A DNA stretch of 64,000 nucleotides from Nitrososphaerota archaeon (GTDB lineage: Archaea; Thermoproteota; EX4484-205; JAAOZP01), in the NCBI GenBank assembly GCA_011605725.1, contig JAAOZP010000004.1, forward strand, positions 1 to 64,000, read 5' to 3'. This document shows, piece by piece, positions 27,527 through 62,486 of the stretch (positions within the stretch are counted from its first letter, which is position 1; every line of letters begins with the position of its first letter). The notes beneath the pieces were generated by a model, which saw only the letters and a program-made list of their open reading frames with translations, was not told where the DNA came from and did no database searches. The translations under genes were made by a program, and so were the position numbers.

Positions 27527-27593
27527 TGTTTCAGCTATTCGCCATAGTCAATCATGCAACTCATTCAAAAGATCAATCTTTACCCTACTGGAT

Positions 27594-31270: not shown

Positions 31271-31411
31271 GATATTTCTAAATTTAAAGATTGCTTAAAA
31301 AGCTTTTCCTCAAAGACAGCTAAGGATCATCGATCTATCTACACGTCACTCAGATTTAATGCCTAGGATACCGATCATGCGTGCGAAACCTCTTCAGTCG
31401 ACATCCCCATT

Positions 31412-31423
31412 AAGCACGCGCTA
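31412..31423. repeat. GC-linker palindrome, decayed (AAGCACGCGCTA)
   Basis: One G>A change from consensus. Confidence 0.7.
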
Positions 31424-31684
31424 ATGTATTTATTTTTGCTCAAATGAGTAGCGGAAAATGTTAAAACAAAGAACAATACTTTAAACGGAAAATATGAAAA
31501 CCTAGAGCCATATTCTCCAAGTTTAGCAGCCTCGTAACATACTGTAGGTGTAGGAGTAATTGCTATCGACTCGTTGCATATCTCCCTAAAGCTTCCTCCC
31601 TTTATTGTTCCAGGTAAACACACAGTCATTATGTCTTGCGGTGAAAAAAGTAAATCTGAAAATTCCCCAGCTTCTGGAATAGCA

Positions 31685-31723
31685 ATAACGTTACATAACG
31701 GTAAGTAACGGTAAATTTATAAA
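31685..31723 (+). promoter_or_regulatory. Three tandem 10-bp repeats followed by a TATA box
   Basis: ATAACGTTAC/ATAACGGTAA/GTAACGGTAA then TTTATAAA (31716-31723), about 25 nt before ATG 31748. Confidence 0.55.
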
Positions 31724-31747
31724 TCGGCGCTTCGCCTTCTATGTGAA

Positions 31748-33049
31748 ATGAAAGAAGCCGAGGGAGAGACATTAGAGTTTAAGAATTCCTTGTCTGATTT
31801 CGACAGTATACTGGCTACAATATCCGCCTTCTCCAACACGAAAGGAGGAAGAATACTTATCGGTGTTAACGACGATGGAAAAGTTACAGGAATCGACATT
31901 GGTAAGAGAACTTTAGAGGAAATTGTGAATAGGATTTCACAAAATACAAATCCAAAAACATATCCTGAGATCAAAATCGAGAGGGTACAGGATAAAAACA
32001 TCATAGAAATCAGGGTTTCAGAACGTAGCGATAAACCTGTTTTCGCTAAGGGAATCGCCTATAAAAGGGTTGGAAGGAACAACGTTAAGATGGATAGGGA
32101 TGAGATCGTAAGCTTGCTCAGGAAAGTTTACGAAATATCATATGAAGATGTTGAAGTCGCAAGCATTGAAGATATTGACTTCGATAAAGTAAGATCCTTC
32201 ATAAATAGGGTCAGGGAAGCAAGATCCAGCTCGATACCTGAAAACGAGACTATTGTTTTGAGAAGCCTCGGATTAGTGGACGGCGAAGCTAGGCTGGCAG
32301 CAATAATTCTATTCGGTAAGAACCCGCAGGCCTTAGCTCCGTGGGCTGTGGTGAAGATCGGCAGGTTCCTAGCTGAAGATGCAAGACCTGTTTTCGAGAA
32401 GGAGATTGCAGGAGACCTTGTAGAGCAGATAGAAAAGAGCTATGCTGAAGTTCTATCATTAATAAGGAAGGAAATAAAAGTAAAGGGGCCCAGAAGAGAA
32501 GAAATCTATGAATATCCTGTCGAAGCAGTCAGAGAACTCATTGTAAATGCTGTGACACATAGGGATTACTCGATTAAAAGCCCAATCTACATAAAGATAT
32601 TTGAAGAAAAGATTTCCATCGAAAACCCAGGTGGACTACCCAAAGGCATAACGGTCGACGAGCTTAAAAAACCGCATAGTTCAATTCTCAGAAACCCTAA
32701 GATAGCAAACGTGCTCTACAACTTGGGGTACATAGAGAAGTGGGGAATAGGAACGTTGGAAGTCATTAAAAAATGTCTGCTTAATGGAAACGGTGAACCC
32801 ATCTTCTACTCCAACGGAGTGTTTAAGGCTGAAGTAAAAAGCAGGTACACGGTGAACATCAGCGATAAGGAAAGGATTGCTGTCGAGTACATAAGGAAAA
32901 AAGGAAAGGCTACGAGGCTGGAGCTTGAAAAAATACTGGGTTTAAAAGAAAGCTCCGTAAGAAAGCTTCTTGAAGAACTCCAACGCAGAGGCCTCGTAGT
33001 GAAAGAAGGAAGGGGAAGGAGAACAAGATACAGGCTTTCAGTTTTCTAA
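31748..33049 (+). CDS. Schlafen/AlbA_2 domain plus HATPase_c_4 plus wHTH protein (RecG-like regulator family)
   Basis: EGETLEFK, ISAFSNTKGGRILIGVNDDG, YKRVG, RELIVNAVTHRDY, NPGG, RNPKIA, EKWGIG. Confidence 0.9.
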   Translation: MKEAEGETLEFKNSLSDFDSILATISAFSNTKGGRILIGVNDDGKVTGIDIGKRTLEEIVNRISQNTNPKTYPEIKIERVQDKNIIEIRVSERSDKPVFAKGIAYKRVGRNNVKMDRDEIVSLLRKVYEISYEDVEVASIEDIDFDKVRSFINRVREARSSSIPENETIVLRSLGLVDGEARLAAIILFGKNPQALAPWAVVKIGRFLAEDARPVFEKEIAGDLVEQIEKSYAEVLSLIRKEIKVKGPRREEIYEYPVEAVRELIVNAVTHRDYSIKSPIYIKIFEEKISIENPGGLPKGITVDELKKPHSSILRNPKIANVLYNLGYIEKWGIGTLEVIKKCLLNGNGEPIFYSNGVFKAEVKSRYTVNISDKERIAVEYIRKKGKATRLELEKILGLKESSVRKLLEELQRRGLVVKEGRGRRTRYRLSVF

Positions 33050-33160
33050 ACTCTCCCCGACAAGTAACTGCTCTGTTAACTTAAGCTCATGGAAGCATCA
33101 CTCCTAATCTTCTGAATCCACAATGGGACTATGTTAAATGCAGAAACACTAATAGCGTAC

Positions 33161-33250
33161 GGCAACAACCGCTGAAGCCTACGGGCACTTCATAAAATAC
33201 AATAACCTCAAGAAAAAATAGCCGGCATCCTAAGTGGCTCAAAGACCCCA
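33161..33250 (+). pseudogene. About 90-bp diverged fragment of the ppsA 5' region, bracketed by GC-linkers
   Basis: gcaacaaccgctgaagcctacgggcacttcataaaatacaataacctcaagaaaaaatagccggcatcctaagtggctcaaagacccc aligns to ppsA about 36162-36251; TAGCGTACG at 33153, AAGCGCGCTA at 33250-33259. Confidence 0.8.
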
Positions 33251-33259
33251 AGCGCGCTA

Positions 33260-33383
33260 TATCTCATCATACTCCTGTACTATCCATATTGTTGCCTTGT
33301 GGACGTAGTCGTTTATCAAGTTCGTAGCATGAATATATGACTCGGCTAGTTTCCTCCTTTCTTTCTCAAAGTTTTCGAACCTC
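33260..33383 (-). mobile_element. tnpB: Internal fragment of tnpB (IS200/IS605 family), bracketed by GC-linkers
   Basis: RGS[K]NFEKERRKLAESYIHATNLINDYVHKATIWIVQEYDEI resembles the TnpB helix preceding the RuvC-II EDL; bounded by 33250-33259 and TAGCACGCGCTT 33384-33395. Confidence 0.65.
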
Positions 33384-33738
33384 TAGCACGCGCTTCTTTT
33401 TCTGAGGTTCCTTATCCATAAGCCACGCTTGCTGTATAGAAGCTTTTCCTCGGGACCGTTTTCTAATAGGCTCTCTTCTCATCTTTCGGTCTGAACATAA
33501 TCTCAGACATTATCCTCGCCCCGGAGTCATTTCTCATTACGAGTATCACGGAACATAGAAGTCTGCTTCCGACTCCGTGAATTCTCCATCTTTGATTCTT
33601 CTCACAAACGTTGAAATGCAGTATCTGTTCTCATCCGCATCATTCTAGTAATTCCCTCCCAAGCTTCTTTATGGATGTTTTTTAAAATTCTGGAATAACA
33701 TTTATATTTTGATGGAAAAATGGTAAATATGGTGAAAA

Positions 33739-33984
33739 ATGGAAAGTAAGGTAGAAGTTAAGAAGGTGGATCCGCAGGGCCGCGTTATTCTGCCCGCTGA
33801 CTGGCGCCAATCCGAAATGAAAGAAAGTAGAGAAATATACATAATCCGAGAGAAAGGGTATTTGAAGATAATCCCGAAGCGTAAAGTTGATTTAACCGAA
33901 TACTTTGATAAAGTTGATTTAAACGTCGAAGCCATTGAGAATTGGAAGAAGTTTGAGAAAAGGCTCTACGGGAGGCGCTCATGA
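33739..33984 (+). CDS. AbrB/MazE-type antitoxin (VapB)
   Basis: KKVDPQGRVILPADWR; ATGA overlap with the PIN gene. Confidence 0.85.
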   Translation: MESKVEVKKVDPQGRVILPADWRQSEMKESREIYIIREKGYLKIIPKRKVDLTEYFDKVDLNVEAIENWKKFEKRLYGRRS

Positions 33985-35786
33985 GGTTCTTAGACGCAAA
34001 CATTTTCATCTACGCCTATTACAAACCGAAGAGGCAGCTCTCCCAAAAAGAGAAGCATATGAAGGAGTATGCCAAGAAGATAATTAGCAATGTATCTCAA
34101 GGAAAAGAGAAGGTGGCAACCACGGTTGTGCATCTTTCGGAGATTGTGAACATCCTCAAGCACGGCATGACCGTGGATGAATTAGCTAAACTCATCACCG
34201 GCTTATTTATGCTGGACAATGTTGAAATATATGGAGTGTCTAAGGAAGACTATTTTGCCGCGGTTGAGTTGAGTAAGGACTTAAAGATTGAGCGCGCGCG
34301 CGCTATCGTGTCCGTTCTCAGCGGGAACAACTCCATTTCTTGGGCAACCCTGAGTAAGTGGAACAGCACGAGCAAATCTTGGGATTACAACATTAAGGAC
34401 TTGAAGTCGAACATGAAGTCAGCACCCGGGTTAAGCTACATGGAGATCTGGGTGGACAAGCAGGACATAGGGTACACCCCTAATGGAATAAACTTCTTCA
34501 TAGAATCGTATGCTGAGGTTGGGGCTATGCTGGAGACGGAGCTGACTTACGTCATAGGTTCCTCGAAGAAGGGAATTACTTTGGACGGGGAACCGGATGA
34601 CTGGGGCACCATAGCCCCGTTGAAGACATTTCCATCAAAGAGGATAAACCCTCCTGAGCTGGAGGCTTCAAGCGTTTACATTGCAAACGATGATAAGAAT
34701 CTCTACTTCAGGTTTGACACGAGGGGAAAGCCCACCACAACAGTCAACGAAGGAGAATTGTACAGAATTACAGAAAGTTACCTTGACACCGATAACAATG
34801 ATAACACTGGATACATAGGGCGTGGTGGAGCAGAATTCAGAGTCTACGCATCCTTCTTTGTTAACGTGTCGAAATACACTCGCGTGCGCTACGAGAAGTA
34901 CACCGGGACGGGGCGTGATTATAGTTGGCAGGAGATTTCTGAATCATGGAACGCTGGGGACTTCAACAGCATCTTCGAATTCAAAATACCTCTCAGCATG
35001 ATTGGAGTAGAGACCGGTAGAACAATCGGCCTCTACATAGATGCGTTCTTGTGCATTTTTTATCGTAATATTCCCCAGCCCGGTCATTTGACGTATCCTC
35101 CGGATACTACTCCACCAGTCACAGCAATAGCTCTGAGCAAACCTAAGCATCAGGTTGGTTCAACAACCTATGTCTCCGGCTCAACGCTTTTCGAGCTCTC
35201 GGCAAGCGATGCTAGTGGAGTTAAGGAGATAAAGTATAGGGTTGACAATGGTCCATGGAATGCCTACACGGCAGGCTTCACGCTGTCAGGGTTCTCTGAC
35301 GGTTCTCACACGATAAGCTATTATAGTGTCGACAATGCTGGAAACACTGAGACCGAGAAAACCCTTACAATAATGCTGGATAAGACTCCTCCAACGATAG
35401 GCGAAGCATCGCCAACCGGAACCATTGGCTCAACATCAGTAACTTTCACGGTTAAGGTCGAGGACTCCGGCTCAGGAGTTAAGGAGGTTAAGCTAATCGT
35501 CGACGGTGCTTCCCAAGGCTTGATGAGCCAAAGCGGAAACACCTACACTAAAACGCTAAGTCTGTCAGAAGGCTCTCACACCTGGAGCATCGAAGCGGTT
35601 GACAACGTGGGAAACACCGCAACCCGAAACTACTCTCTCACATTCTCCACATGGATGAGCCTACTACCCTACCTTATAGCTGCTACCATAGTAATCGTAA
35701 TCATCATAGCCACCGCAGCAATCATGCTTAGGAGGAGACGCGCACCACTACCACCGCCCCCGCCTCCACCACCTCCTCCACCATAA
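33981..35786 (+). CDS. Chimeric ORF: truncated VapC PIN domain (33981-34290) fused in frame via a GC-linker to the C-terminal part of a surface protein (Ig-like domains, TM, poly-Pro)
   Basis: MRFLDANIFIYA..HLSEIVNIL, then ERARAIV encoded by GAGCGCGCGCGCGCTA, then LDGEPDDW, DTTPP..DGSHTISYYSVDNAGN, TM-RRRR-PLPPPP. Confidence 0.8.
   Translation: MRFLDANIFIYAYYKPKRQLSQKEKHMKEYAKKIISNVSQGKEKVATTVVHLSEIVNILKHGMTVDELAKLITGLFMLDNVEIYGVSKEDYFAAVELSKDLKIERARAIVSVLSGNNSISWATLSKWNSTSKSWDYNIKDLKSNMKSAPGLSYMEIWVDKQDIGYTPNGINFFIESYAEVGAMLETELTYVIGSSKKGITLDGEPDDWGTIAPLKTFPSKRINPPELEASSVYIANDDKNLYFRFDTRGKPTTTVNEGELYRITESYLDTDNNDNTGYIGRGGAEFRVYASFFVNVSKYTRVRYEKYTGTGRDYSWQEISESWNAGDFNSIFEFKIPLSMIGVETGRTIGLYIDAFLCIFYRNIPQPGHLTYPPDTTPPVTAIALSKPKHQVGSTTYVSGSTLFELSASDASGVKEIKYRVDNGPWNAYTAGFTLSGFSDGSHTISYYSVDNAGNTETEKTLTIMLDKTPPTIGEASPTGTIGSTSVTFTVKVEDSGSGVKEVKLIVDGASQGLMSQSGNTYTKTLSLSEGSHTWSIEAVDNVGNTATRNYSLTFSTWMSLLPYLIAATIVIVIIIATAAIMLRRRRAPLPPPPPPPPPPP
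34290..34305. repeat. GC-linker palindrome, expanded (GC)6, at the gene-fusion junction
   Basis: GAGCGCGCGCGCGCTA. Confidence 0.85.
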
Positions 35787-36020: not shown

Positions 36021-38429
36021 ATGACCCAAGGAGAAAAATCCAAGAAATACGTACTCTGGTTCAACGAAATAGGCATAGAAGACGTACCCCTAGTAGGAGG
36101 AAAATCAGCAAGCCTAGGAGAAATGCTCAGGAAAACAGGCGTACCCGTGCCAAACGGCTTCGCAACCACCGCTGAAGCATACCGCTACTTCATAAAATAC
36201 AACAACCTCGAGAAGAAGATAGCCGACATACTAAGCGAGCTGAAAGACCCCAACGACACCAAAACACTGCAAAACGTAGGAGCAAGAATCAGGAAAACAA
36301 TCATGGAGGCAAAAATGCCCCCGGAAATAGAGGAGGAAATCAAAAAATACTACGCGCAGCTGGAGAAAGAAGTCAACCAGAAAAACCCGTTCGTAGCAGT
36401 AAGATCATCAGCAACAGCCGAAGACCTCCCAGACGCAAGCTTCGCAGGACAACAAGAAACATACCTAAACGTGTCAACACCCGAACAAGTCGTAGACAAG
36501 GTTAAAGAATGCTACTCAAGCCTCTTCACAGACAGAGCAATATTCTACAGAGTCCAAAAAGGATTCGACCACATGAAAGTCGCACTATCCGCAGCAGTCC
36601 AGCTAATGGTCTACTCAAAAGCCTCAGGAGTAATGTTCACCCTCGACGTAAGCAACGGAGACAGAAGCGTAGTAATGATAGAAGCAGGATACGGCCTCGG
36701 CGAATACGTCGTCCAAGGAAAAATCACGCCAGACGACTACTACGTTAGAAAAACCGACCTGCAAATCGTAAAGAAAGTCGTATCAACCAAAAAAGTAATG
36801 CTCGTCAGAAAACCAGGAGGAGGAACAGAAGAAAAAGAAGTCCCGCCAGAACTGCAAGACAAGCAAATACTCACCGACCAACAGATAAAAGAACTAGCAG
36901 CATACGCAATAGAAATCGAAAACCACTATGGTAAACCAATGGACATCGAATGGGCACTAGACGAAAGAGACAACAGACTCTACATACTCCAAGCAAGACC
37001 AGAAACAGTATGGGCACTCAAAAAACCCCAGGAGGAAAAAACAGAAACAGTAGCAGTAACCAAAGAGAAAGAAGTAATATGCCAAGGACTACCAGCATCA
37101 CCAGGACTAGCCGTTGGAAAGGCACATATAATTCTAAGCGTCGATAAATTAGACACATTCAAGCCAGGAGAAATACTAGTAACAATAATGACGGCGCCCG
37201 AGTGGGTTCCGGCCATGCGTAAGGCGGCTGCAATAGTTTGCGATTCAGGCGGCATGACTGCACACGCGGCCATAGTCTCACGAGAACTCGGAATCCCATG
37301 CATCGTCGGAACCGCGTCGAAAGGAAAACCTGCAACCGAAGCAATCAAGGATGGAGAAATCATAACGGTTGACGCGAAGCTGGGAGTCGTATACAGGGGA
37401 GCTTTAGCAGAAGTCGTAGAGAAAAAGGAGGAGAAGAAGGTTGAAGCCGTCGCAGTTGCAGCAGAATCATACCCGGTGACGGGAACAAAGATTTACGTTA
37501 ATCTAGGTGAACCCGAGTTAGCGGAAAAAGTCGCTTCACTACCTGTTGACGGCGTCGGACTAATGAGGCTCGAGTTCACGTACGCTGCCGAAGTAGGCGA
37601 GCACCCGCTACACTTAATCGAAACCGGTCACCCTGAGAAGGTTGTCGACAAGCTTGCCGAGGGGATGAGAAAAGTCTGCGCAGCGTTCTATCCTCGTCCC
37701 GTCGTGGTTCGTCTCGTCGACTTCAAGAGCAGCGAGTATAGAGACTTGAAAGGCGGGGAAAAATATGAGCCTGAGGAGCCCTCTGCGCTATTAGGCTGGA
37801 GAGGAGCATCGAGATATTACGATCCTAAGTATCTGCCTGCCTTCAGGCTTGAGCTCAGAGCTATAAAGAAGGTTCGCGACGAGTATGGGTTGAAGAACCT
37901 GTGGGTCATGATTCCGTTCTGCAGGACGATAAGCGAGATTGAGAAGGTCGTCGCAATCATGAAAGAGGAGGGACTTGAGCGCGGACCAGACTTCAAACTG
38001 TGGGTCATGGCTGAGATACCTTCAAACGTCTTGATAGCTGACAAGTTCAATAGATATATAGATGGGTATTCGATTGGTTCGAATGATTTAACTATGTTAA
38101 TACTTGGTGCAGACAGGGATAATGAGACTGTGGCGAAAATCTTCGACGAGAGGGACCTTGCTGTTAAAAGAGCAATTAAATATTTAATTAAAATAGCGCA
38201 TCGCGACGGCAAGACTGTTTCAATATGTGGACAGGCTCCATCAGTATATCCTGAGTTCACCGAGTTTCTTGTTAGAGCAGGCATTGACTCCGTGTCTATT
38301 AATCCTGATGCTGCAGTGTTCACTAGGAAGCTTGTTGCATCTATTGAGCAGAGGATAATGCTCGAGAAGGCTCTCGGCAAAGTTAAGGTTGACCCTGACT
38401 GGGACCTGCCTGACCCAGACGAAGAGTAA
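36021..38429 (+). CDS. ppsA: Phosphoenolpyruvate synthase
   Basis: VGGKSASLGE, AVRSSATAED, GGMTAHAAIVSRELG (phospho-His), GVGLMRLE, SIGSNDLT, ICGQ. Confidence 0.96.
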   Translation: MTQGEKSKKYVLWFNEIGIEDVPLVGGKSASLGEMLRKTGVPVPNGFATTAEAYRYFIKYNNLEKKIADILSELKDPNDTKTLQNVGARIRKTIMEAKMPPEIEEEIKKYYAQLEKEVNQKNPFVAVRSSATAEDLPDASFAGQQETYLNVSTPEQVVDKVKECYSSLFTDRAIFYRVQKGFDHMKVALSAAVQLMVYSKASGVMFTLDVSNGDRSVVMIEAGYGLGEYVVQGKITPDDYYVRKTDLQIVKKVVSTKKVMLVRKPGGGTEEKEVPPELQDKQILTDQQIKELAAYAIEIENHYGKPMDIEWALDERDNRLYILQARPETVWALKKPQEEKTETVAVTKEKEVICQGLPASPGLAVGKAHIILSVDKLDTFKPGEILVTIMTAPEWVPAMRKAAAIVCDSGGMTAHAAIVSRELGIPCIVGTASKGKPATEAIKDGEIITVDAKLGVVYRGALAEVVEKKEEKKVEAVAVAAESYPVTGTKIYVNLGEPELAEKVASLPVDGVGLMRLEFTYAAEVGEHPLHLIETGHPEKVVDKLAEGMRKVCAAFYPRPVVVRLVDFKSSEYRDLKGGEKYEPEEPSALLGWRGASRYYDPKYLPAFRLELRAIKKVRDEYGLKNLWVMIPFCRTISEIEKVVAIMKEEGLERGPDFKLWVMAEIPSNVLIADKFNRYIDGYSIGSNDLTMLILGADRDNETVAKIFDERDLAVKRAIKYLIKIAHRDGKTVSICGQAPSVYPEFTEFLVRAGIDSVSINPDAAVFTRKLVASIEQRIMLEKALGKVKVDPDWDLPDPDEE

Positions 38430-38466
38430 GGTTTCTAGTTCCCTTTTCTAACTTTTGTATTTTTCA
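38430..38466 (+). terminator. T-rich tract after ppsA (archaeal-type terminator candidate)
   Basis: gtttctagttcccttttctaacttttgtatttttc directly after the stop. Confidence 0.4.
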
Positions 38467-49410: not shown

Positions 49411-51165
49411 TTATCCTCTAGCCAACTTAACTGTTCTTTCAACTGCCTCCCATATTTTGGATTTGAATAGTTCTTCTTTCTTATCTTCCTGGAGGTTTTT
49501 TATAAAATCGTATGCTTCATTGGGATGGATTTTTTCTCCTTCCTGCCTTTCCCAGCCCAGCTTCTTGATCTCGTCCTCTAACTCTCTATCAAGTTTGATG
49601 CATACATTTTGATCAATAAGATCGCCGAGCTCAACATCATGATCCGCTAAGATTATGAACGGTATCTCATATTTCCTTAATAACTTAATCCACTTTTTAA
49701 AGTTCTCTTTACCGCCTACATCCACGACGGTCACATCGTTTTGATCAAGTATATTCTCTTTCAATTCTGAGATCGCTATAACTGTAGCGTGATCCGCCGG
49801 GCCCTCTACCAGGAGAACGCTGTTAGAAAAGAATACTTCTGGTCGGAATTCATGCCGTTGAATTGCAAAACCGTTCGTCGGCGCTATGACCGTGCTTTCG
49901 TTATCATCCTTTCTCACATAAATCAGCCTCCTATCTTGTGTGCCTTGCAGTAGACTAAGGTCAACAAAGTATGGCGAATGCGTTACTATTATTGTCTGCA
50001 CGTCTTTCTTATCCATCAATATTTTACTTAGCAAGGTTATTTTCGTTTGGTGGAGGTGGAGAGCTGGTTCATCGAGTATAAGAATAGGATGTTCCGGAGC
50101 CGATATTAATGAAAGCATATAGAGAGCTTCAAAATAACCTGACGCACTCTCATGTAATCTAACACGCTTAGAACCCTCCTTTATGACTACGTATCTTTTC
50201 TTTCCAGTTAGAGCAGAGGTTTCTTCTTCATAAACGTCAAACTCTATGGACTGAAATATTTTTTGGAAATCCTGCTTTAATTTATCGTAGTTCTCAGCTA
50301 AAGGCTCTTTATTCTTTAGATCGAAAAGATTATTCGCTAGCTCTTCCAAAGAGGGCCTATGCTCAGATATGAAACATAGCCTATTCTCTAGCATTACCGC
50401 AAGCAACGTCCAAAAGGATGAGTGTCCTGTAAAACTGTATCTGGAGAGTTCTTTTATTGCATTCATAACATATTGTTTATCACGGTTTGTAAGGTATATA
50501 GTATCATCTATGTGAAATCTTGAACAATGAGATTGCTCAAAAAGGGTTTTTATATAAGTAGTGTCAAAATTGAGGGTCAGAGAAGGCATGTTTTTCTGCA
50601 TCTCCGGGAATTCCCTGCGAGAAGATTCATTTAATAGCTCTAATGCTTTTCCGGGATCTTCTCTAGAAATCGTTTGGGGCAACATTCCCCGATAGGCAAC
50701 ATATGATTCTCCTTCTCTACAGGAAGAATATAATATGATTCCATTATCAAACTATAGCGCCACGAAATCTGGTCGCACCTCTGCCGTGTCGGCAGTCGGC
50801 TTCCAGTATACGATCAGGGTTGAAATCTCATAGTCCTTATAGTAGGATTCGAGTTCTTCTGGAGGAGTATCCTTTCTGCTAACAGAATCAAGCAGTAAAT
50901 TTACTTCGCTTTCAGAAAATTCTACTCTCATATTTATTGAGCATTCAGAATTTTTATTAAACCTTAACTCATTTGAGATACCAGTGAGTGAAAGGCTTGG
51001 AGGACCAGAAGAGGGTGCACTAGGTTTAGTCAGGAGTTTCAATATTCTGATGAGGTTTGTCTTTCCACTCGCGTTTCTGCCTACTATAACATTATAGTTT
51101 CCAAAGCTGAAGCTAGCATCCTTATAGCTGTACAAATTCTTTATTTGTATGCTTTTAATCTTCAT
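49411..51165 (-). pseudogene. OLD-family ATP-dependent nuclease (ABC ATPase plus TOPRIM), interrupted by an in-frame TAG at 50752-50754
   Basis: IKNLYSY, GRNASGKTN, SASG, ILDEPALHLH, VTHSP, LLVEGPAD, ILADHD; the frame continues past the TAG (FDNGIILY..). Confidence 0.82.
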
Positions 51166-51323
51166 TCACAATAGCAATGTTAAATTAAACTAATAAATTT
51201 TAAGACATGATGGATTGACTATGAATTTTGGTAGGAAAGTGCCTAATCCGGAAAAATAACGCTTAATGCTAGTTAGAGGAAAGAATGAAGAACCTTCTCG
51301 AATAACCTTTTTCATCAAGAGCC

Positions 51324-51538
51324 TGGCGTGCACTAGTTTTCTAATCTAATGACTATTCCAAAAATTCTATTAACATAGAATATACAAACACGAATACCGT
51401 GCCTTCCCTCCGGACATTTCTACGTTCTGCTTCGCCAGAAAATTGGGCATTAACCCCTTTACTGCGTACCCTCTTTCAGCATACTCGACACGATCATACA
51501 TCTCTGTGTCTTTTAGAAACATCCCGGGTAGCGCGCTA
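51324..51538. repeat. Two GC-linker copies (TGGCGTGCACTA 51324-51335; TAGCGCGCTA 51529-51538) bracketing an unidentified fragment of about 190 bp
   Basis: Decayed and short variants. Confidence 0.6.
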
Positions 51539-51664
51539 AATTCTGGTGGGACATATAAACTTTTAACATGGGCTAAAAGTTTCAGCATTATCCATTAACA
51601 GTTGGCATTCGTACGTCTGAAGATTCATAGTTCATACTTACCTTTTCTCAAATCTTCTCTAACA

Positions 51665-52996
51665 CTATTTTGCCATCTTAAGATTTGCTCTTTTTATCTT
51701 CTTATGAAAGAATGGTATTAGAATAAAGCATAACGTTGCAAAAGCAATATGTCCACGAGCCAATATCGTAGTGGTCTCTTCTAAGTGGTATACTATGAGG
51801 GATATGAGATAACTATAGGTGCTACTCAACAGACAGTACCCTGTTACTAGAAGGAATGCAAAATCCTTCAGGCTCTTAAGATTAAAAACATCCCTATTCA
51901 AGTATGCGTAATAGCCTAGTATAATTGATTGGCCAATTATCCAGAATGAAGCGCCTACAGGAGAGTATTCTGATGAGAAGAAAGCTGGCATGTTGAAGAA
52001 CAGATTTAAAGGTATGGGGAGGAAGTACCAGAAGAACCTAAACCGCAGTTTCTTAAGCCATATTTCAAGCGCGGTTCCTGAAAAAATGAAAACCAGTAGA
52101 TTGCCGAGGAGATGATCGTAACTATTGTGAAAGAGGAATGAGGAAAAAGCTTCAACCCATCTTGAGATGCTGTTCCAATAGTTGAGCATGATGAAATCCA
52201 TGCCTGTACCTATGAACACGTAAATTGCTAACATTATAATGCTCATGGCTAGTGTACACCAGGGAGTATTCTTACTTACGATGTGCATGACGCGTAGGGT
52301 CTTCGAATTAAGCGAATTATTGCTATTTTTCAATGTGAAGCGGAAAAACAGATTAATTGTTATCAAAGCCACGGAGATTGAGCAGAAAGCTAGAAATACT
52401 ATAGCGGTGGTTAAAAACCAGCTTTTATGATGAGGAAAAGGCAACTCGTCTACTACAGAGCCTTTAACGTTTCCAGTATAGGAGTTGCTCGCGAAAACCA
52501 TTTCCATGCCTAAACGGTTTCTGACGAAGGCTGCAAAGTAGATGGTGACCATAGTAATGTTTGGCGAGGCTCTTTGAATATTGAGATGAGGGTAAGAATA
52601 GAAAAATATGGTGGATGCGTCAAATGCTAGTTTTGTCATGTTCCTGAAGAATGAGAAGGTTACCAGTATCGGCTCTTTAGAATCTATCTTGTAAAAGTCT
52701 ACGGATAGCGATGAATAATCATCATAACCAGGCAAGCCTCTGGCGATAGCATCGTATTTATCGTTACTTATGCTCTCTACATCCGAAAGCGTGAAATTCC
52801 CTATGTACGTGTTAAAAGAGAAATCACTAACTGTCCCATTTGTCCAAATCATTAGGCTGAACTGAGCACGGCTCGGCGTTAAATCATGAAACAAGAAATA
52901 ATATCCTACTGAAAATACGATAAACACTACTAATATGAAAATGATTACCATGCATACCGTAAGTTTCCTATCTTTTGCTAGTTCAGTGAGTTCCAT
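51665..52996 (-). CDS. Rhomboid-family intramembrane protease with N-terminal extracellular domain
   Basis: FLFHNSYDHLLGN, PVGASF (GxS), RGHIAF; multiple TMs. Confidence 0.72.
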   Translation of the reverse strand: MELTELAKDRKLTVCMVIIFILVVFIVFSVGYYFLFHDLTPSRAQFSLMIWTNGTVSDFSFNTYIGNFTLSDVESISNDKYDAIARGLPGYDDYSSLSVDFYKIDSKEPILVTFSFFRNMTKLAFDASTIFFYSYPHLNIQRASPNITMVTIYFAAFVRNRLGMEMVFASNSYTGNVKGSVVDELPFPHHKSWFLTTAIVFLAFCSISVALITINLFFRFTLKNSNNSLNSKTLRVMHIVSKNTPWCTLAMSIIMLAIYVFIGTGMDFIMLNYWNSISRWVEAFSSFLFHNSYDHLLGNLLVFIFSGTALEIWLKKLRFRFFWYFLPIPLNLFFNMPAFFSSEYSPVGASFWIIGQSIILGYYAYLNRDVFNLKSLKDFAFLLVTGYCLLSSTYSYLISLIVYHLEETTTILARGHIAFATLCFILIPFFHKKIKRANLKMAK

Positions 52997-53305
52997 TTAC
53001 TCATCCTCCTCTTTACTTGGCAAAATATATTTTTTCAACTCTGAATAGATAAGTGTACTTATAACAATTAACGTTATAATTGTTAATCCAGCATGTTTAC
53101 GACCCTCCATATCTAAGGAGGGTACAACTAAAAACATATACGACAGCACGCCGAGAAGAAGACAGTATAGCGCTGCATCAAGTATCAGGAAAGCTTTTCT
53201 TCGACCGTAAATAGCAACCCTTCTCCTAATCTCCTCAATCCATTGTCTCCAAGTTCTTGCTAAATATTCTGCCATGCAGTCCCAAAGTTTTCCAATCATT
53301 CTCAT
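52997..53305 (-). CDS. Small 2-TM membrane protein
   Basis: Two hydrophobic helices, abuts the rhomboid start. Confidence 0.55.
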   Translation of the reverse strand: MRMIGKLWDCMAEYLARTWRQWIEEIRRRVAIYGRRKAFLILDAALYCLLLGVLSYMFLVVPSLDMEGRKHAGLTIITLIVISTLIYSELKKYILPSKEEDE

Positions 53306-53366
53306 GCATTCAGATCAGCAAATTGCTTAAATAAATGTCATGCAAACAGTTGAATGAAGAAAAGTA

Positions 53367-54035
53367 ATGAGGTCATGGATGGGGAAGACGCTGGTGGAAA
53401 TTAGTAACGTAGAGTTTGACAGGAGCCGTTTTCGAAGATATTACGGTAATATAGGCGAGATGGTAGCTGAGGAATTTCTCGTAAGAAGAGGGTTTAGCGT
53501 GTGGCTATTTACACCGTATTCTTCATACGAGTCTCCCCTCCGGAAAAGGGGAGATTTAGGCAGAGGTGGATTACTCCATTACCTTAGCTATCTTTACTTA
53601 AAGCCGCCGGATAGAAACGATCTCGGAAGCAAATACATTGTGAAATATGGAGGGGCATCCTATGTTTTGTCGCGGGGAGTCGAAGATTATCATCATAGGC
53701 TTAAAGAGCTGAAGAACTTCTTTGGTGAAAAACTAGAGGCTTTTAGTAAATACGTGGAGGAATTAGGCATAGTCAGGAAAACGAGTGATGCTGAACCGGT
53801 TGAAATATTGCCAGAACAGGAGGAAACTAAGTATTACCCTGATTTGGTTGCGAAGAAGAGTGGTGAAATATATGTTGTTGAGGTTAAGACCAACACTGGG
53901 CTTGGATATTTAAAAGGAGCTAAACTTAAAGGACTACTGTTAGCCGAAAAGTATGGGTTCATCCCCACGGTAATTTCATTGAACATTGACGTAGAGGCAA
54001 CTAATTTAAAAATGATATCACTTGCAAGGTTCTGA
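53367..54035 (+). CDS. PD-(D/E)xK endonuclease-like protein
   Basis: GNIGEMVAEEFL, YPDLVAKK..YVVEVKT. Confidence 0.72.
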   Translation: MRSWMGKTLVEISNVEFDRSRFRRYYGNIGEMVAEEFLVRRGFSVWLFTPYSSYESPLRKRGDLGRGGLLHYLSYLYLKPPDRNDLGSKYIVKYGGASYVLSRGVEDYHHRLKELKNFFGEKLEAFSKYVEELGIVRKTSDAEPVEILPEQEETKYYPDLVAKKSGEIYVVEVKTNTGLGYLKGAKLKGLLLAEKYGFIPTVISLNIDVEATNLKMISLARF

Positions 54036-54056
54036 TGCTTTCTTTATTAATCATCC

Positions 54057-54085
54057 TAGCGGGCGCTAGCGTGCGTCGCGCGCTA
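54057..54085. repeat. Concatenated GC-linkers TAGCGGGCGCTAGCGTGCGTCGCGCGCTA
   Basis: Two to three fused or decayed units sharing TA. Confidence 0.75.
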
Positions 54086-54225
54086 ATTCATTGGTTGAAA
54101 TTATTCGGAATACTGGTTTTCGTGGTTGCATCCGCCAGAAGATGAAGAATATATCCGAGTAGTCATGTAGACAACACCAGTAGGACAAGAGCGAAAAGAG
54201 ATGCGATGAAAAGTATTAAAAAGGT

Positions 54226-54311
54226 TAGCGCGCGCTTTTAGCTTCAAAACTATGGGAACGATAATACAGATTGCTATTGCCCCAGTGACAAAATAGAGCC
54301 AGTGTGCGCTT
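54226..54311. repeat. GC-linkers TAGCGCGCGCTT (54226-54237) and CAGTGTGCGCTT (54300-54311)
   Basis: One intact and one decayed copy. Confidence 0.75.
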
Positions 54312-54485
54312 AACTTGGCTTTTAGTTGAATAACCTTGCTTTCAATTGGGGATTTAGAAAGCTATTCTCCTTTATTCCTTCTGGTTCTTTAGGAATTTCC
54401 AATGGTACAAGTTCTCCGATGAACTTCTGTTTTTAAGCTTTTGGCGAAGAAAAATTTTTAAGCTTAGATTTAGAAAACAAGCTGG

Positions 54486-55617
54486 ATGTCAAGCTACGAA
54501 CAAATTGAAGGATTTGAGTATTGGAATAAAGGAGCTTGGGAAAAATTCGTTAAAGATCACATTCTTCCTCTTCATATTTCGTCGAGCAAGCTTTTAAAGC
54601 TAAGAGAAGAAATTCTTTCAAGAACAGAGGGGAGAAAAACTGTCAGACTTAGACGACAACTTACTAAAATTTTTACTTGGAGGCATTAACGAAGAAGGAG
54701 ACTATGAAAAGAATAGCTTAGCCTTGTTCATTAAAAATGCCTTTGGAATTTATGTGGATTCAAAACAATATGTTGCTCTAGCAAAAGAAGGAATCAATCC
54801 TCTTGCATACGCTAAAGTTGAAGTTGACGCAGAAACAGAGTTCATTAAGTTTCTAAGAAATCTAAGTTCATTATCTTCAGGAATAGTTAGCAAAGTTGGA
54901 TTAGAAACTACTGAAGTAAAAGAAGTTGAGGAATTAATTAGAGAACCTGAGAAGATACTTGAAGTTTTAAGGGAACTTTATGAAAAAGTTTTACTGGTAA
55001 CTGCAAACTACAACTACTATACCTTCTTTACGGTAAGTACTAGGAACTTACCTTTCTTCTATCTTACGAAGGCATATCCAAAGCTTATAGAGAGTTTTGA
55101 TGAACTAAGAGAATTTTTAGGTCTTGGAGTAATCTTTGAGCCGGAAACTGAAGTACAGGATATAAAAGAAAAATGTACTATTTGGGGTCATGTGGAGGGA
55201 GGACTATGCAACTTAATATTTAACTTAAACAATTTAATCTGGGAAAGTATTAATCCAAGCTCTAATCTTTCACCAATATTTGGCTTTATTTCTCCCTCGT
55301 TTAAAGACTTAAAGAAAGAATACTTAAATAAAGCGGAAGAAAAGCTAAAACTTATAGGATGGAAGTTGCAACGACGTGACGCATTTAAAATTCTTCTCTG
55401 CGCGTTTAGCATCTCGTCAGGAATAGTTACTAAAAATTGGATTGTTAGATACCACACCCCTGACTACGGAACATATTATGATGATTCTGAAATCGCTAAA
55501 CAATATGAAGATAAAAGCTTGTTTAACGTTCTTAGCGATTTTTCACCTGCTTTATTCCTTGGATACCTTTATGTTGATATAGTCAGAAGTGATTATCTAA
55601 GTTTTCAAAGGGTGTAA
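54486..55617 (+). pseudogene. Hypothetical protein of about 376 aa, frameshifted at G4 54629-54632
   Basis: ORF 54486 joins the 54724 frame (GEKLSDLDDNLLKFLLGG..) if one G is removed. Confidence 0.6.
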
Positions 55618-55622
55618 TAAGC

Positions 55623-57401
55623 TTGCAGAAAGAAGAAGAGAAGAAAGAAGGTCTTGAAGAAGAGGAAAGGAAAAGAAGAGAGAAAGAAAAACAAAAAACT
55701 ACTAGTGTTCGTGAAGAAAGGATAGAAAAGAAAGAAGTTTCTAGAGAAGAAGGAAAAGAGGCTGAAGCTCAAGAAGTTTTAATAATTCCAATATTAAAAT
55801 TAGAGAAACCCTCTTTTGAAACCTATAAGTTAAAGTTAAACATTAAAGTTCCAGAAATAAAGAGAGAAGAAATGGTTGTGAATATACCATTCGTTAAACC
55901 TCAAGAAAAACCTTCAGTTGTAGTTGAGCAAAAATTTAACGACAGGATAGTAATTATAGAGCGAGAAGAAATTTTATCTACTATTCCAATTCTTAGGCTG
56001 GAGACTTTAGCTAAAGCTCAAGTTATTCAGAAATTCGATGAAGAAGTAAGAAAAATAAAAGAAGAACGAATAGAACCTTTAATACCATTCTACAACGTAG
56101 AACGATTTTCTTTACCAAGATACTTAGAAAGCCTTAATTCAAATGTTTTGACCGCTGATGAAATTACGAAGCTAAAAGTAAAAAGTGTAGAAGAGTTAAA
56201 GGAGAAAGTAGGAACTGGAGAAGCTGGGGTACCTCCTGCTGGTGAAGAAGAAATTCCTGATTTCCTTAAGTTTTCGTTTGGTAGTGAAGGAGGAAAGATT
56301 AGAAGAAAAGGCCCAAAGATAATATTGTTTAAAGATGTTAAGAAAGATAGTTATATTAATTTCTTAGAAAACGTATGCTTAAGGGTTTACAGAGAAATTG
56401 AGGGAGGAGAACCAGAAGCCGTAAAAATTGAAAAGATAGATCATTTAAACAAAGAAGAGATTGAAAGACGGTTAGAAGCCGGTGGAAAAATCTTTACGAT
56501 AAATTTAGATGAAATAAAGGAAGCAGACAGAGAAGAATTCGATAAGATGATGAAAAGATTTGATGTAACTCATTTAATGGAAAGATTGGAGGAAACATAC
56601 TCTAGTGGACTAGGATACATAATATTTACTACAAGAAGTGAAGAGAAATTTAAGAAGATGAAAGAAGATTTACTTAATATCAACCTAATGTCTCAAGGAA
56701 GGTTAAACATGATTTTTATGGAAGCAAGAAGCTTACCTTTAGATTTGATAAGGCTATCCTCTGGAATGGTTGACTTATTTAAACCGCCAGGAAAAGTGAT
56801 AATAGACGAAGTAATACCAACTTTCTCAACTTTCGATTATATTTTTAACGATGCTCTCTTTAAGGAAGATAGTCGGTTTAACAAAGTTCTTGAAGAAATA
56901 AAGAATGAAGAAAATGGATTATTCAAGCTTGCCACTGCTAGAAACAAAGGTCAAGAAGAATCGGATCTTCACTACAACATTAAAGTTTTCATAGTTAGAT
57001 ATCTAGTAAATAGGTTAAGAAAAGAAGGAAAACAGTTAAGAACCCTTGAAGAAATAATAAAACATATAAAGACAGAGGAAAAAAGTGAAGGAAAGGAAAC
57101 ACCTGATGTTCAGGTAGACAATGAAGTCTATGAAGTTGAGACCTTGTTTGGAGAAGGTGTAGATGCTGACAAGAAAATTGATGAAACAATTAAGAAACAT
57201 GGTAGTAAAAAGGTAAACATAGTTATGGATAATTTTGGATTTCTATTACACTTAAAGGACTTAGAAAAAAGAAAGAGACATTACAAGAATGTAGAATTTT
57301 ACACGTTGGACTTAAAGAATAAAGAATTAGTAAGCATTGAAGAATTCAAGAAAGAGTTAAGGAAAATACTTTTATCTGCAAACAACAAAGCTGATTTTTG
57401 A
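55623..57401 (+). CDS. Protein with charged N-terminus, four repeats of about 33 aa and a C-terminal PD-(D/E)xK-like domain
   Basis: IPILKLEKP/IPFVKPQEKP/IPILRLETL/IPFYNVERF repeats; ESDLHYNIK..TPDVQV..YEVETL. Confidence 0.6.
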   Translation: MQKEEEKKEGLEEEERKRREKEKQKTTSVREERIEKKEVSREEGKEAEAQEVLIIPILKLEKPSFETYKLKLNIKVPEIKREEMVVNIPFVKPQEKPSVVVEQKFNDRIVIIEREEILSTIPILRLETLAKAQVIQKFDEEVRKIKEERIEPLIPFYNVERFSLPRYLESLNSNVLTADEITKLKVKSVEELKEKVGTGEAGVPPAGEEEIPDFLKFSFGSEGGKIRRKGPKIILFKDVKKDSYINFLENVCLRVYREIEGGEPEAVKIEKIDHLNKEEIERRLEAGGKIFTINLDEIKEADREEFDKMMKRFDVTHLMERLEETYSSGLGYIIFTTRSEEKFKKMKEDLLNINLMSQGRLNMIFMEARSLPLDLIRLSSGMVDLFKPPGKVIIDEVIPTFSTFDYIFNDALFKEDSRFNKVLEEIKNEENGLFKLATARNKGQEESDLHYNIKVFIVRYLVNRLRKEGKQLRTLEEIIKHIKTEEKSEGKETPDVQVDNEVYEVETLFGEGVDADKKIDETIKKHGSKKVNIVMDNFGFLLHLKDLEKRKRHYKNVEFYTLDLKNKELVSIEEFKKELRKILLSANNKADF

Positions 57402-57553
57402 ATTAATATGAAATTAAAGTCGATGGTTTTCCTTTCTCGCTGTAAATTCGGAAGTTCTTCCCTTACAATACTTTTATTAGAACTCTCTTTGTTTGAATAA
57501 GGAAGGGTACTGACTTTCCTCCCTTCCCATTGTCATTCCCTGCAACACTGAAA

Positions 57554-57565
57554 AAGCGCGCGCTA
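57554..57565. repeat. GC-linker AAGCGCGCGCTA
   Basis: The NERD reading frame is open from this point. Confidence 0.85.
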
Positions 57566-57629
57566 TTATAGGTATCCTCTATTTGACCCAGTTTCACCTT
57601 TCTTACTCTCATATTATTTACCTTTCCAT

Positions 57630-58325
57630 GTGGCCTTTTATCATTTAATAATGGTGAGTCAAAGCAAGATTGAAGAAAGATTTTTTCATGCGTTAGATGT
57701 ATCTTTTATGCTTGCAGGGAATAAAAGTATATCCCAGAAAGAATTCCTAAATCATGGATTAAAACCTGATGAGTTTCAGAGAATGTTTTGGGAATGCAAA
57801 ATAGGAGGAGGAGAGGGGGAGGAGAACGTTGCAGAGGTTCTCAACTCCCTGAGGAGTTTTGAAACTGTTAACGATGTTGTCCTCCCGGGTGAGAAGGCTA
57901 ATATTGACCATGTTGCGGTTTCTACAAAGGGGGTTTTCGTCATCGAGACTAAGAATCATAAGGGCTTGGTCAGGTGCAGGGGAGACTCCTGGGAGCTTTT
58001 GAAAACAGGCAGGAGGGGAACCGTCTACTCCGGCAACATCGGAAACCCCAGTAAGCAGGTTAAGAGGAATGCTGTTGCATTGAGAAAATTCCTATCTGAG
58101 AAGCTTGGAGTAGTCGCCTATGTGCACGGTATCGTCTGCTTCACTAACCCTGAAGCTAGGCTGGAAGTACAGGAGCCAACGGTCACCGTGATCCACATCA
58201 CAAACCTGAAAAGCTTCTTCCAGACACTTGAAGAACAGGAAGCGTTATCCGAGCAGGAAGTTAGAAGGATCAAGGCGGAGGTTGAAAAATACTCTTACAA
58301 CAGACCTAGGGAAAAACATGTTTAA
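57630..58325 (+). CDS. NERD-domain nuclease (probably 5'-truncated)
   Basis: GGEGEENVAEVL, NIDHVAVSTKGVFVIETKNHKG, NPSKQV. Confidence 0.8.
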   Translation: MAFYHLIMVSQSKIEERFFHALDVSFMLAGNKSISQKEFLNHGLKPDEFQRMFWECKIGGGEGEENVAEVLNSLRSFETVNDVVLPGEKANIDHVAVSTKGVFVIETKNHKGLVRCRGDSWELLKTGRRGTVYSGNIGNPSKQVKRNAVALRKFLSEKLGVVAYVHGIVCFTNPEARLEVQEPTVTVIHITNLKSFFQTLEEQEALSEQEVRRIKAEVEKYSYNRPREKHV

Positions 58326-58369
58326 AAATAGCTTTGCATAATATTATTTAATGTTTCCTTAAAACCAGC

Positions 58370-58456
58370 TAGCTCGCGCTACGTAAAACCCCTGAAGAGT
58401 TAAGTTTGCATGTTCCTTCTTCATGTAAGCTTATATAAGATTAAGAGCGCGCGCGG
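58370..58456. repeat. GC-linkers TAGCTCGCGCTA (58370-58381) and GAGCGCGCGCGG (58445-58456)
   Basis: Two variant copies 63 bp apart. Confidence 0.75.
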
Positions 58457-62396: not shown

Positions 62397-62486
62397 TAGC
62401 GCGCGCTTCAATAACGGCTAACGTTTATAGCTGGTTAGCTCTGTCCCCCAAAGAACATTATGAGTGGAACCCCAGCGCGCGCGCTA
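62397..62486. repeat. GC-linkers TAGCGCGCGCTT (62397-62408) and CAGCGCGCGCGCTA (62473-62486)
   Basis: Two intact copies 64 bp apart. Confidence 0.85.

What the first reader, a model, noticed from the sequence alone, without database searches (positions are those of the whole stretch)
33153..33395. Mini-array of linker-bounded scraps: a ppsA piece and a tnpB piece
Seen: the order is linker (33153), about 90 bp of diverged ppsA 5' sequence, linker (33250), 124 bp of inverted tnpB-like sequence, linker (33384). The tnpB frame ends ..GAG ATA TA|GCGCGCT, so the gene supplies the TA. Similar short inter-linker pieces occur at 27527-27593, 54086-54225, 54238-54299, 58382-58444, 62409-62472 and 63390-63541. 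Inference: these are either residues of serial linker-leaving deletions or captured fragments of incoming DNA, which would be loosely spacer-like. With a pAgo nearby, it is worth asking whether they are transcribed as guides (speculative).
Basis: partly seen in the sequence, partly recalled or inferred. Interest (0 to 1): 0.75.

Follow-up and report, generated by a model that had tools for sequence, protein, structure and literature searches.

The report
Gene scraps trapped between repair-scar palindromes
In this hot-spring archaeon a 90-base excerpt of the ppsA gene and a 124-base excerpt of a transposon gene sit between copies of a tiny GC palindrome that this lineage seems to add wherever broken DNA is rejoined, so the "mini-array" is most likely an old compound repair scar, not a CRISPR-like memory.

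Summary
33162-33251 is an 85% copy, with two frameshifts, of ppsA 36162-36253. 33260-33382(-) is an internal 41-aa TnpB fragment. Copies of A(GC)nT bound both pieces; the leftmost "linker" is only a half-site.

TAGCGCGCGCTA has about 275 copies in the genome against about 27 expected, has no conserved flanks, and is confined to part of one Nitrososphaerota genus. It is new sequence at joints: near-identical metagenome strains carry an intact vapC and Ig gene where the window has (GC)6T across a deletion of about 550 bp.

Short linker-bounded pieces are a real class: 32 gaps of 37-160 bp against 11-13.5 expected, and none under 37 bp. Four of them, ppsA included, are excerpts of sequences that stay intact and linker-free elsewhere. 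In 10 of 11 ends the outer linker letters overlap the joined DNA.

Best reading: a compound scar of linker-mediated end joining with trapped DNA fragments. Serial joining events are the main rival.

No Piwi domain, Ku, CRISPR-like regularity or intact tnpB was found, so the guide or spacer idea has no support.

This scan had already flagged the palindrome phenomenon in other windows of this genome and in other genomes. I reproduced its co-occurrence with a PriS-like gene, but not the claimed RNA template.

The parts
31684..33050 (+). SLFN/AlbA_2-HATPase-wHTH gene cassette, left neighbour of the array. It is horizontally mobile: 88% identical to a genome of another family.
   Evidence: Pfam. 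Match to G021:C15 covers exactly 31684-33050. Metagenome contigs diverge at 31684 and 33045.
33051..33152 (.). 102 bp of unknown origin (filler). No match in the genome, genus or class.
33153..33158 (.). Half-linker TAGCG(T). Either a decayed or incomplete palindrome, or chance.
   Evidence: Sequence. 8 of 12 letters match the consensus, about 5% chance within +/-10 nt (my estimate).
33159..33249 (+). ppsA excerpt (about codons 47-77), 85% identical to 36162-36253, with two frameshifts. It is an isolated copy: the source gene is intact 3.0 kb downstream in the same orientation.
33250..33259 (.). Linker, (GC)3 form AAGCGCGCTA. The first two A's are also the next ppsA letters, a 2-nt overlap.
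   Evidence: The exact 10-mer TAGCGCGCTA has 17 copies in the genome.
33260..33382 (-). Internal TnpB (IS200/IS605 OrfB) excerpt of 41 aa, matching residues 233-271 of a 375-aa homologue. It ends just before the RuvC-I motif.
   Evidence: It is the only OrfB_IS605 match in the whole genome.
33384..33395 (.). Linker TAGCACGCGCTT. The same mutated copy (AGCACGCGCTT) with the same right flank is present in G013, where the left flank is different, so this linker is old.
33396..33738 (+). Conserved upstream region of vapB, the backbone that resumes after the array. It is shared with G002 and G013.
34292..34304 (.). Young linker (GC)6T sealing a deletion of about 550 bp between vapC codon 104 and the Ig-domain gene. 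It creates an in-frame VapC-Ig fusion ORF (33981-35786).
   Evidence: Pre-deletion forms are in X1 contigs and L055.
36021..38429 (+). Intact ppsA, the source-like gene of the excerpt. Its last 200 bp or so are multi-copy in the genus.
27527..27593 (.). 67-bp inter-linker piece, origin unknown.
54057..54299 (.). Back-to-back linkers (54057-54085), then pieces of about 140 bp and about 62 bp separated by linker 54226-54237. Origins unknown.
58382..58444 (.). 63-bp inter-linker piece, origin unknown.
62409..62474 (.). 66-bp inter-linker piece. The next block, 62523-63373, is a linker-bounded cassette found elsewhere in G002 and in G000 contig C7.
63390..63541 (.). 152-bp inter-linker piece. 38 nt of it are 92% identical to C11:41389-41424.

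Best explanation
The stretch is an old, non-functional compound scar of double-strand-break repair. In this lineage, broken DNA ends are joined through a short self-complementary run, A(GC)nT, usually TAGCGCGCGCTA. That run is added at the joint and overlaps the ends by 1-4 letters. In one repair episode near the vapBC upstream region, short free or copied DNA fragments were trapped between the chromosome ends: a 90-bp excerpt of ppsA and a 124-bp excerpt of an IS200/IS605 tnpB. Each joint received its own linker, as in multi-fragment capture at breaks in eukaryotic end joining.

Shown: the identity of the pieces; that the linker is new sequence at joints; the excess of 37-160 bp pieces; the overlap at the borders.

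Inferred: that the pieces entered in one step; which enzyme writes the linker (candidate: a PriS-like AEP polymerase that co-occurs with the motif); and how.
For: 1. The pieces are internal fragments of two unrelated genes, in opposite orientations, each ending at a linker.
2. The linker is absent from the parental sequences. None of 10 ppsA orthologues has it. At 34292-34304, a 99.7%-identical strain and three relatives carry an intact vapC and Ig gene without any linker.
3. Four short pieces are complete excerpts of sequences that remain intact and linker-free elsewhere: ppsA; C6:25765-25825; C9:60798-60863; C16:246-404. Identities are 85-99%.
4. There are 32 gaps of 37-160 bp against 11-13.5 expected when local density is kept, reached in 0 of 2000 shuffles. 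No gap is under 37 bp against about 5 expected. Relatives show the same mode at 55-100 bp. Independent serial events would not give a preferred size or a lower limit.
5. The outer linker letters are shared with the joined DNA in 10 of 11 ends, and (GC)n varies from 3 to 6. Both fit annealing of added GC tails.
6. A mix of genomic and transposon DNA trapped together at one break is documented in yeast, plants and humans (PMC11724301).
7. The motif and a PriS-like gene occur in the same subset of the genus.
Against: - No intermediate or empty-site form of this particular array was found. It is fixed in all contigs of the species and absent from other species, so a single step is not shown.
- The right linker is shared with G013 next to a different left flank. 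Joints at one place can therefore be remade, and the array could have grown stepwise.
- The left 'linker' is only a half-site.
- Some short pieces elsewhere are collinear residues of paralogous copies (C1, 28.3 and 30.3 kb) or an att-like tRNA duplicate (C9:66136). Those fit serial events.
- All five local source-copy pairs have the same orientation. Random ligation would give that with P of about 0.03.
- The writing enzyme is unproven. I found no GC-repeat template next to the PriS-like gene of this genome.
Confidence: 0.5

Rival explanations
1. Serial events. The same linker-mediated joining acted several times. For example, an unequal joining between chromosome copies made a local duplication reaching into ppsA, an IS200/IS605 copy was present, and later linker-leaving deletions trimmed both to small residues.
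For: - The source ppsA lies 3.0 kb downstream in the same orientation. All five local source-copy pairs share orientation.
- The C1 pieces at 28.3 and 30.3 kb are collinear residues of paralogous units.
- The right linker predates the split from G013 and has different left flanks in the two genomes.
- Deletions with a single linker are shown directly.
Against: - No collinear remnant lies next to the ppsA piece. The 102 bp to its left match nothing upstream of ppsA.
- The excess of 37-160 bp gaps and the absence of gaps under 37 bp are not expected from independent events.
- No intact tnpB, and no other tnpB fragment, was found in this genome or genus.
Confidence: 0.3
2. The palindrome is a site for a site-specific recombinase or a tiny mobile element, and the pieces are cassettes shuffled between such sites, as in an integron or shufflon.
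For: - Blocks bounded by linkers recur in different contexts, for example 62523-63373 in G002:C43 and G000:C7.
- The same linker has different partners in G000 and G013.
Against: - Linkers appear at joints where neither parent had one.
- There are no conserved flanks.
- Length varies, (GC)3-6, and the borders overlap the ends.
- 12 bp is shorter than known recombinase core sites (own knowledge).
Confidence: 0.08
3. A spacer-like record of incoming DNA that is transcribed into guides for an Argonaute or another defence system.
For: - The tnpB piece has no relative in the genus, so it may be of foreign origin.
- The array lies in a defence-rich variable region with an SLFN/AlbA_2 gene, VapBC, a type I R-M system and an OLD nuclease.
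Against: - No Piwi domain in the genome.
- The pieces include host ppsA and tRNA sequence.
- Lengths run from 37 to over 300 bp, with no leader and no regular repeat.
- The pieces decay like pseudogenes, with frameshifts and 15% divergence.
- No Rfam match.
Confidence: 0.03
4. Chance similarity, or an assembly or library artefact.
For: The left linker is weak. The tnpB Pfam score is below the curated cut-off.
Against: - ppsA match at E 1e-20. TnpB pairwise match at E 5e-9.
- The motif is in roughly 10-fold excess.
- The array is bridged by independent contigs from four studies spanning 2017-2025 and by three further metagenome contigs.
- A mutated linker is shared between species.
Confidence: 0.02

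Closest known systems
Capture of DNA fragments (filler DNA) at double-strand breaks by end joining in yeast, plants and human cells (PMC11724301, Introduction)
   Same: Short pieces of genomic and transposon DNA, sometimes several at once, are inserted at a repaired break. There is a little microhomology at each joint, and the source sequence stays intact.
   Different: Here every joint also carries a constant self-complementary A(GC)nT run that is in neither partner. The host is an archaeon in which I found no Ku. The pieces have a preferred size of 37-160 bp.
Telomerase-made interstitial telomeric repeats inserted at repaired breaks (PMC8537989)
   Same: A fixed short sequence, foreign to both ends, is written at a break during repair and stays as an evolutionary scar. 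It is recognised by comparison with empty orthologous loci.
   Different: No reverse transcriptase or template RNA is shown here. The added sequence is a palindrome of 10-14 bp, not a tandem telomeric repeat. There are hundreds of scars in a 2.2-Mb genome.
PriSL primase-mediated microhomology end joining in Saccharolobus (PMC12019639)
   Same: An archaeal AEP primase with terminal-transferase and strand-annealing activity repairs breaks using microhomology. A PriS-like gene co-occurs with the linker here.
   Different: According to that paper's abstract, the Saccharolobus pathway mainly increases small insertions and deletions. No constant written palindrome or trapped fragment is reported there. 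The gene here is an extra, PriL-less paralogue next to radA, and its role is untested.
CRISPR repeat-spacer arrays
   Same: Short unique segments, some of mobile-element origin, alternate with a recurring short palindromic motif.
   Different: The 'repeat' is 10-14 bp and variable. 'Spacers' are 37 to over 300 bp and include host genes. There is no leader, no regular spacing and no adjacent cas genes. Linkers are scattered genome-wide at deletion and rearrangement joints.
HIP1-type highly iterated palindromes of cyanobacteria (own knowledge)
   Same: A short GC-rich palindrome is strongly over-represented in one lineage.
   Different: HIP1 sits inside intact genes genome-wide. This motif sits at breaks in homology and is demonstrably new at young joints.

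Membership tests
CRISPR array | Identical direct repeats of about 23-50 bp | tested here: not met
   The recurring unit is a 10-14 bp palindrome of variable (GC)n length.
CRISPR array | Spacers of near-uniform length in a regular array | tested here: not met
   Pieces run from 37 to over 300 bp. This array has only two pieces, of 91 and 124 bp.
CRISPR array | Adjacent cas genes or leader | tested here: inconclusive
   The neighbours scanned are SLFN/AlbA_2, VapBC, an Ig-domain protein and ppsA. I did not run a dedicated cas search of the whole window.
pAgo guide locus | A PIWI-domain Argonaute encoded nearby | tested here: not met
   PF02171 six-frame search of the genome gave no match at E<=0.01, while the control genomes did match. 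Ten large window ORFs carry no Piwi domain. The genome is 93% complete.
IS200/IS605 element (TnpB) | Full-length TnpB with RuvC motifs and a zinc ribbon | tested here: not met
   Only 41 aa remain, matching residues 233-271 of 375. The fragment stops before RuvC-I and is bounded by linkers.
IS200/IS605 element (TnpB) | Element ends with hairpins, and tnpA | tested here: not met
   The flanks are a ppsA fragment and vapB upstream DNA. There is no other OrfB_IS605 match in the genome.
Ku/LigD non-homologous end joining | Ku protein encoded | tested here: not met
   PF02735 was not found in the genome, which is 93% complete.
Integron-like cassette array | Recombination sites present at both partners before exchange, plus an integrase | tested here: not met
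   Parental sequences of young joints carry no linker. I did not search for an integrase.
MITE / REP-type palindromic element | Conserved element longer than the core, with target duplication | tested here: not met
   No conservation outside the 12 letters in 104 copies.
Linker-written end-joining scars (provisional class noted earlier in this scan) | A(GC)nT palindrome exactly at a break in homology | tested here: met
   33250 (end of ppsA homology), 33384, 34292 and 31412 coincide with block ends against G002 and G013.
Linker-written end-joining scars (provisional class noted earlier in this scan) | Linker absent from both parental sequences | tested here: met
   ppsA orthologues. Intact vapC and Ig forms in X1, L055, G002 and G013. 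Four excerpt sources.
Linker-written end-joining scars (provisional class noted earlier in this scan) | Co-occurrence with the PriS-like AEP gene | tested here: met
   The gene is present in G000, G002, G016, G007 and G006, with a fragment in G008. All of these are linker-rich. It was not found in the genus genomes that lack exact copies of the linker. These genomes are kin, so the match is not independent evidence.
Linker-written end-joining scars (provisional class noted earlier in this scan) | RNA template matching the linker beside that gene | tested here: inconclusive
   A hairpin with compensatory changes lies at the 3' end of the gene. I found no GCGCGC or linker-complementary stretch in the G000 or G002 copy.

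The most novel reading that the evidence does not exclude
The lineage has an active process that takes excerpts of DNA and inserts them. Excerpts of 40-160 nt, from the host or from invaders and possibly copied from RNA or from resection debris, receive self-complementary A(GC)nT tails from a primase-family enzyme and are stitched into breaks. This would be a natural linker-ligation mechanism that shuffles gene fragments and can create in-frame fusions such as VapC-Ig at 33981-35786.
Probability: 0.2. Interest if true: 0.9.

Novelty: categorically new. Interest (0 to 1): 0.78.

Why it matters
How most archaea repair double-strand breaks without Ku is an open question. Hundreds of joints sealed with one constant self-complementary run would be the footprint of an undescribed end-joining route.

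The mini-arrays add three things:
- The route can trap or copy short DNA excerpts.
- It has a preferred fragment size with a lower limit near 40 bp.
- It uses 1-4 letters of overlap at each joint.

These properties are testable and constrain the enzymology. They also explain how mosaic defence islands and in-frame gene fusions arise in these genomes. If the enzyme is found, a natural activity that adds adaptors to DNA ends would also interest tool builders.

The array itself is probably inert debris.

Tried and rejected
- Full-text search for AGCGCGCGCT inside words timed out. The exact 12-mer is in 0 papers. A general end-joining search gave only CRISPR-editing reviews.
- Protein search for longer relatives of the 41-aa TnpB piece found nothing.
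- A metagenome scan for a scrap-specific 20-mer found this species' own contigs and unrelated short matches, but no alternative source ppsA.
- No RNA holder is listed for the stretch, so transcription could not be examined.
- Prim-Pol PF09250 is not in the genome.
- No Rfam family matches 32800-33900.
- The short direct and inverted repeats in the array are at chance level. This includes a 13/15 match between the end of the AlbA_2 gene and the end of the tnpB piece: about 0.4 such matches are expected per 900 bp, and half of this one lies inside the tnpB homology.
- I considered that piece sizes follow archaeal histone steps of 30 bp. One histone gene exists. The sizes show no clear 30-bp ladder by eye, and I did not test this formally.
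- I looked for a GC-repeat template around the PriS-like gene and did not find one in this genome.
- Comparing 44001-64000 and a linker-dense stretch of C9 with five relatives gave no clean case of an empty site against a piece-with-two-linkers site.

Full report
**What is there**

The 690-bp gap between the SLFN/AlbA_2 gene (31748-33049) and vapB (33739-33984) holds no ORF of note. From left to right it contains:
- 102 bp that match nothing (33051-33152);
- TAGCGT (33153-33158);
- a 91-bp copy of ppsA codons 47-77 or so (33159-33249);
- AAGCGCGCTA (33250-33259);
- a 41-codon TnpB fragment on the minus strand (33260-33382);
- TAGCACGCGCTT (33384-33395);
- vapB upstream DNA that is conserved in relatives.

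*The ppsA copy.* It is 85% identical to 36162-36253 (E 1e-20) and has two single-base deletions. Homology stops exactly at the linker.

*The TnpB fragment.* It scores E 0.0026 against OrfB_IS605, below Pfam's cut-off. It aligns at 44% over 39 aa to residues 233-271 of a 375-aa protein with HTH_OrfB, OrfB_IS605 and Cas12f1-like TNB domains, from a genome of another family of the same order. It is the only OrfB_IS605 match in this genome. Nothing like it was found in 16 genus genomes.

*The leftmost 'linker'.* This is only a half-site.

*Argonaute.* No Piwi domain exists in the genome.

**The palindrome**

- TAGCGCGCGCTA with up to 2 mismatches occurs 21 times in the window against 1.2 expected.
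- It occurs 279 times in the 2.23-Mb genome (274 after merging overlaps) against about 27 expected.
- Flanks show no conservation in 104 copies.
- The GC run varies: the (GC)3 form has 17 exact copies, (GC)4 has 28 and (GC)5 has 4.
- Exact copies are confined to part of one genus of hot-spring Nitrososphaerota MAGs: 28, 26, 35, 14, 11, 9 and 4 copies in seven genomes, and none or one elsewhere.

**The palindrome is new sequence at joints**

- In G002 and G013 the vapC gene continues past ...AAGATTGA as CCCAAACGATGCC. In the window the same point is followed by GCGCGCGCGCGCT and then the interior of an Ig-domain gene. The result is an in-frame VapC-Ig ORF.
- A 12-kb contig from one hot-spring run is 99.7% identical over 31300-34291 and then runs on into intact vapC. 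A second contig of the same run is identical to 34305-34600 and runs leftwards into the intact Ig gene 5' part.
- A contig from another metagenome shows about 547 bp where the window has 21 bp.
- Homology blocks against G002 also end at linkers 31412 and 34294.
- None of 10 ppsA orthologues has a linker where the scrap ends.

**The array is real and old**

- Independent contigs from four studies bridge 32764-33748 with 0-9 differences. Three further metagenome contigs carry the scrap at 99-100% identity.
- No other species of the genus has the array. G002 lacks 31728 to about 33420 and has no linker there.
- G013 has the same mutated linker, AGCACGCGCTT, and the same right flank, but an unrelated left flank. 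This linker therefore predates that split, and joints at one place can be remade.
- The scrap is 78-85% identical to every genus ppsA, while those genes are 87-94% identical to the window's own ppsA over the same stretch. That fits an old, freely decaying copy.

**Short pieces are a class**

- Among 274 merged linkers, 32 gaps are 37-160 bp. Shuffles that keep linker density at the 2, 5 or 10 kb scale give 11-13.5, and 0 of 2000 shuffles reach 32. No gap is under 37 bp against about 5 expected.
- Five relatives show few gaps under 50 bp and a mode at 55-100 bp.
- Directly abutting linkers also exist, at 54057-54085.

**Where pieces come from**

Twelve of 42 short pieces have a second copy in the genome.

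*Excerpts of an intact source.* Four pieces match over their full length up to both linkers, and their source lies inside continuous DNA without linkers:

| Piece | Source | Identity |
|---|---|---|
| ppsA scrap, C4:33159-33249 | C4:36162-36251 | 84-85% |
| C6:25765-25825 | C6:23020-23080 | 95% |
| C9:60798-60863 | C20:867-932 | 97% |
| C16:246-404 | C1:24875-25033 | 99.4% |

*Other kinds.* Two pieces on C1 (near 28.3 and 30.7 kb) are collinear residues of two paralogous units (at about 28.3 and 30.3 kb). C9:66136-66200 duplicates the 3' end of the tRNA gene at which a variable island begins, like an attachment-site copy.

*Orientation.* All five local source-copy pairs share orientation.

**Borders**

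For 11 ends with a known parent, the linker shares 1, 2, 4, 2, 1, 3, 2, 1, 0, 1 and 1 letters with the parental continuation (read). Ten of 11 share at least one, where chance gives one in four. This supports 'the gene supplies the TA'. It also fits annealing of added GC tails in variable register.

**Mechanism**

I favour a compound repair scar in which fragments were trapped between ends that had received self-complementary tails (0.5). The reasons are the size class, the lower size limit, the isolated excerpts with intact sources, and the mix of a genomic and a transposon piece. The same mix is described for fragment capture at breaks in eukaryotes (PMC11724301). Serial joining events (0.3) remain possible for this array, because no intermediate is available.

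*The enzyme.* This is inferred only. A PriL-less PriS-like gene next to radA occurs in the linker-rich genomes and was not found in the genus genomes that lack exact copies. These genomes are kin, so the link is weak. Its 3' end folds into a hairpin with compensatory changes. I found no stretch complementary to the linker there, so I did not reproduce the RNA-template claim made in earlier notes of this scan. Ku and Prim-Pol were not found. Archaeal PriSL is known to carry out microhomology end joining (PMC12019639). Telomerase is known to leave fixed repeats at repaired breaks (PMC8537989).

**Comparison and novelty**

The array fails the tests for a CRISPR array, a pAgo guide locus, an intact IS200/IS605 element, an integron-like array and a MITE (see the membership rows). 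The exact 12-mer appears in no paper of the searched library. The palindrome phenomenon had already been noted by this scan in other windows of this genome and in other genomes. This report adds the analysis of the linker-bounded pieces.

Noticed in passing
window 38234-38440 (also 59700-59826, and G000:C4:69735-69973, 70829-71034, 201862-201960, 204789-204910, 211104-211358, 212157-212280): The last 200 bp or so of ppsA are multi-copy (75-90% identical) in this genome and in nearly all genus genomes, including those without linkers. An AT-rich variable island starts right after ppsA. This looks like an attachment site for integrative elements with many decayed copies.
   Followed up: partly
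window 33981-35786: An in-frame fusion ORF. VapC (PIN) residues 1-104 are joined through linker-encoded ERARA to an N-terminally truncated Ig-domain surface protein. The Ig part is only 54% identical (protein) to the G002 gene and 83% identical (DNA) to another strain of the species, while the flanks are 88-99% identical.
   Followed up: partly
window 31684-33050: The SLFN/AlbA_2-HATPase-wHTH gene with its 44-bp upstream stretch is 88% identical to a genome of another family (G021). It sits in several different contexts in metagenome contigs. G002 keeps only the 44-bp upstream stub.
   Followed up: partly
G000:C9:61487-61634: A second ppsA-like scrap between linkers: 47% identical over 32 aa to ppsA residues 218-249 or so.
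   Followed up: no
G000:C12:18403-18857; G002:C5:15332-15827; G016:C64:582-836: Fragments of the PriS-like gene itself lie in linker-dense regions, so the candidate enzyme gene also gets broken and copied.
   Followed up: no
L015 1905-1945 (G000:C7, 3' end of the PriS-like gene): A hairpin inside the coding end: CCGGC...GCCGG in G000 and G002 against CCTCCC...GGGAGG in G006, G007 and G012. The changes are compensatory even though they alter the protein sequence.
   Followed up: partly
window 41877-50685: A defence island in low-GC DNA: type I R-M genes hsdS, hsdM and hsdR (43241-48506), an OLD-family nuclease (49411-50685), and several large ORFs without a Pfam match (41877-43244, 51665-52996, 55623-57401).
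   Followed up: no
window 54057-54085; G000:C5:83385-83406: Two or three linkers lie directly back to back with no piece between them.
   Followed up: no
G000:C9:60558-60670: The conserved backbone ends at a tRNA gene in all five relatives. The linker-rich mosaic island of about 13 kb begins right after it.
   Followed up: partly
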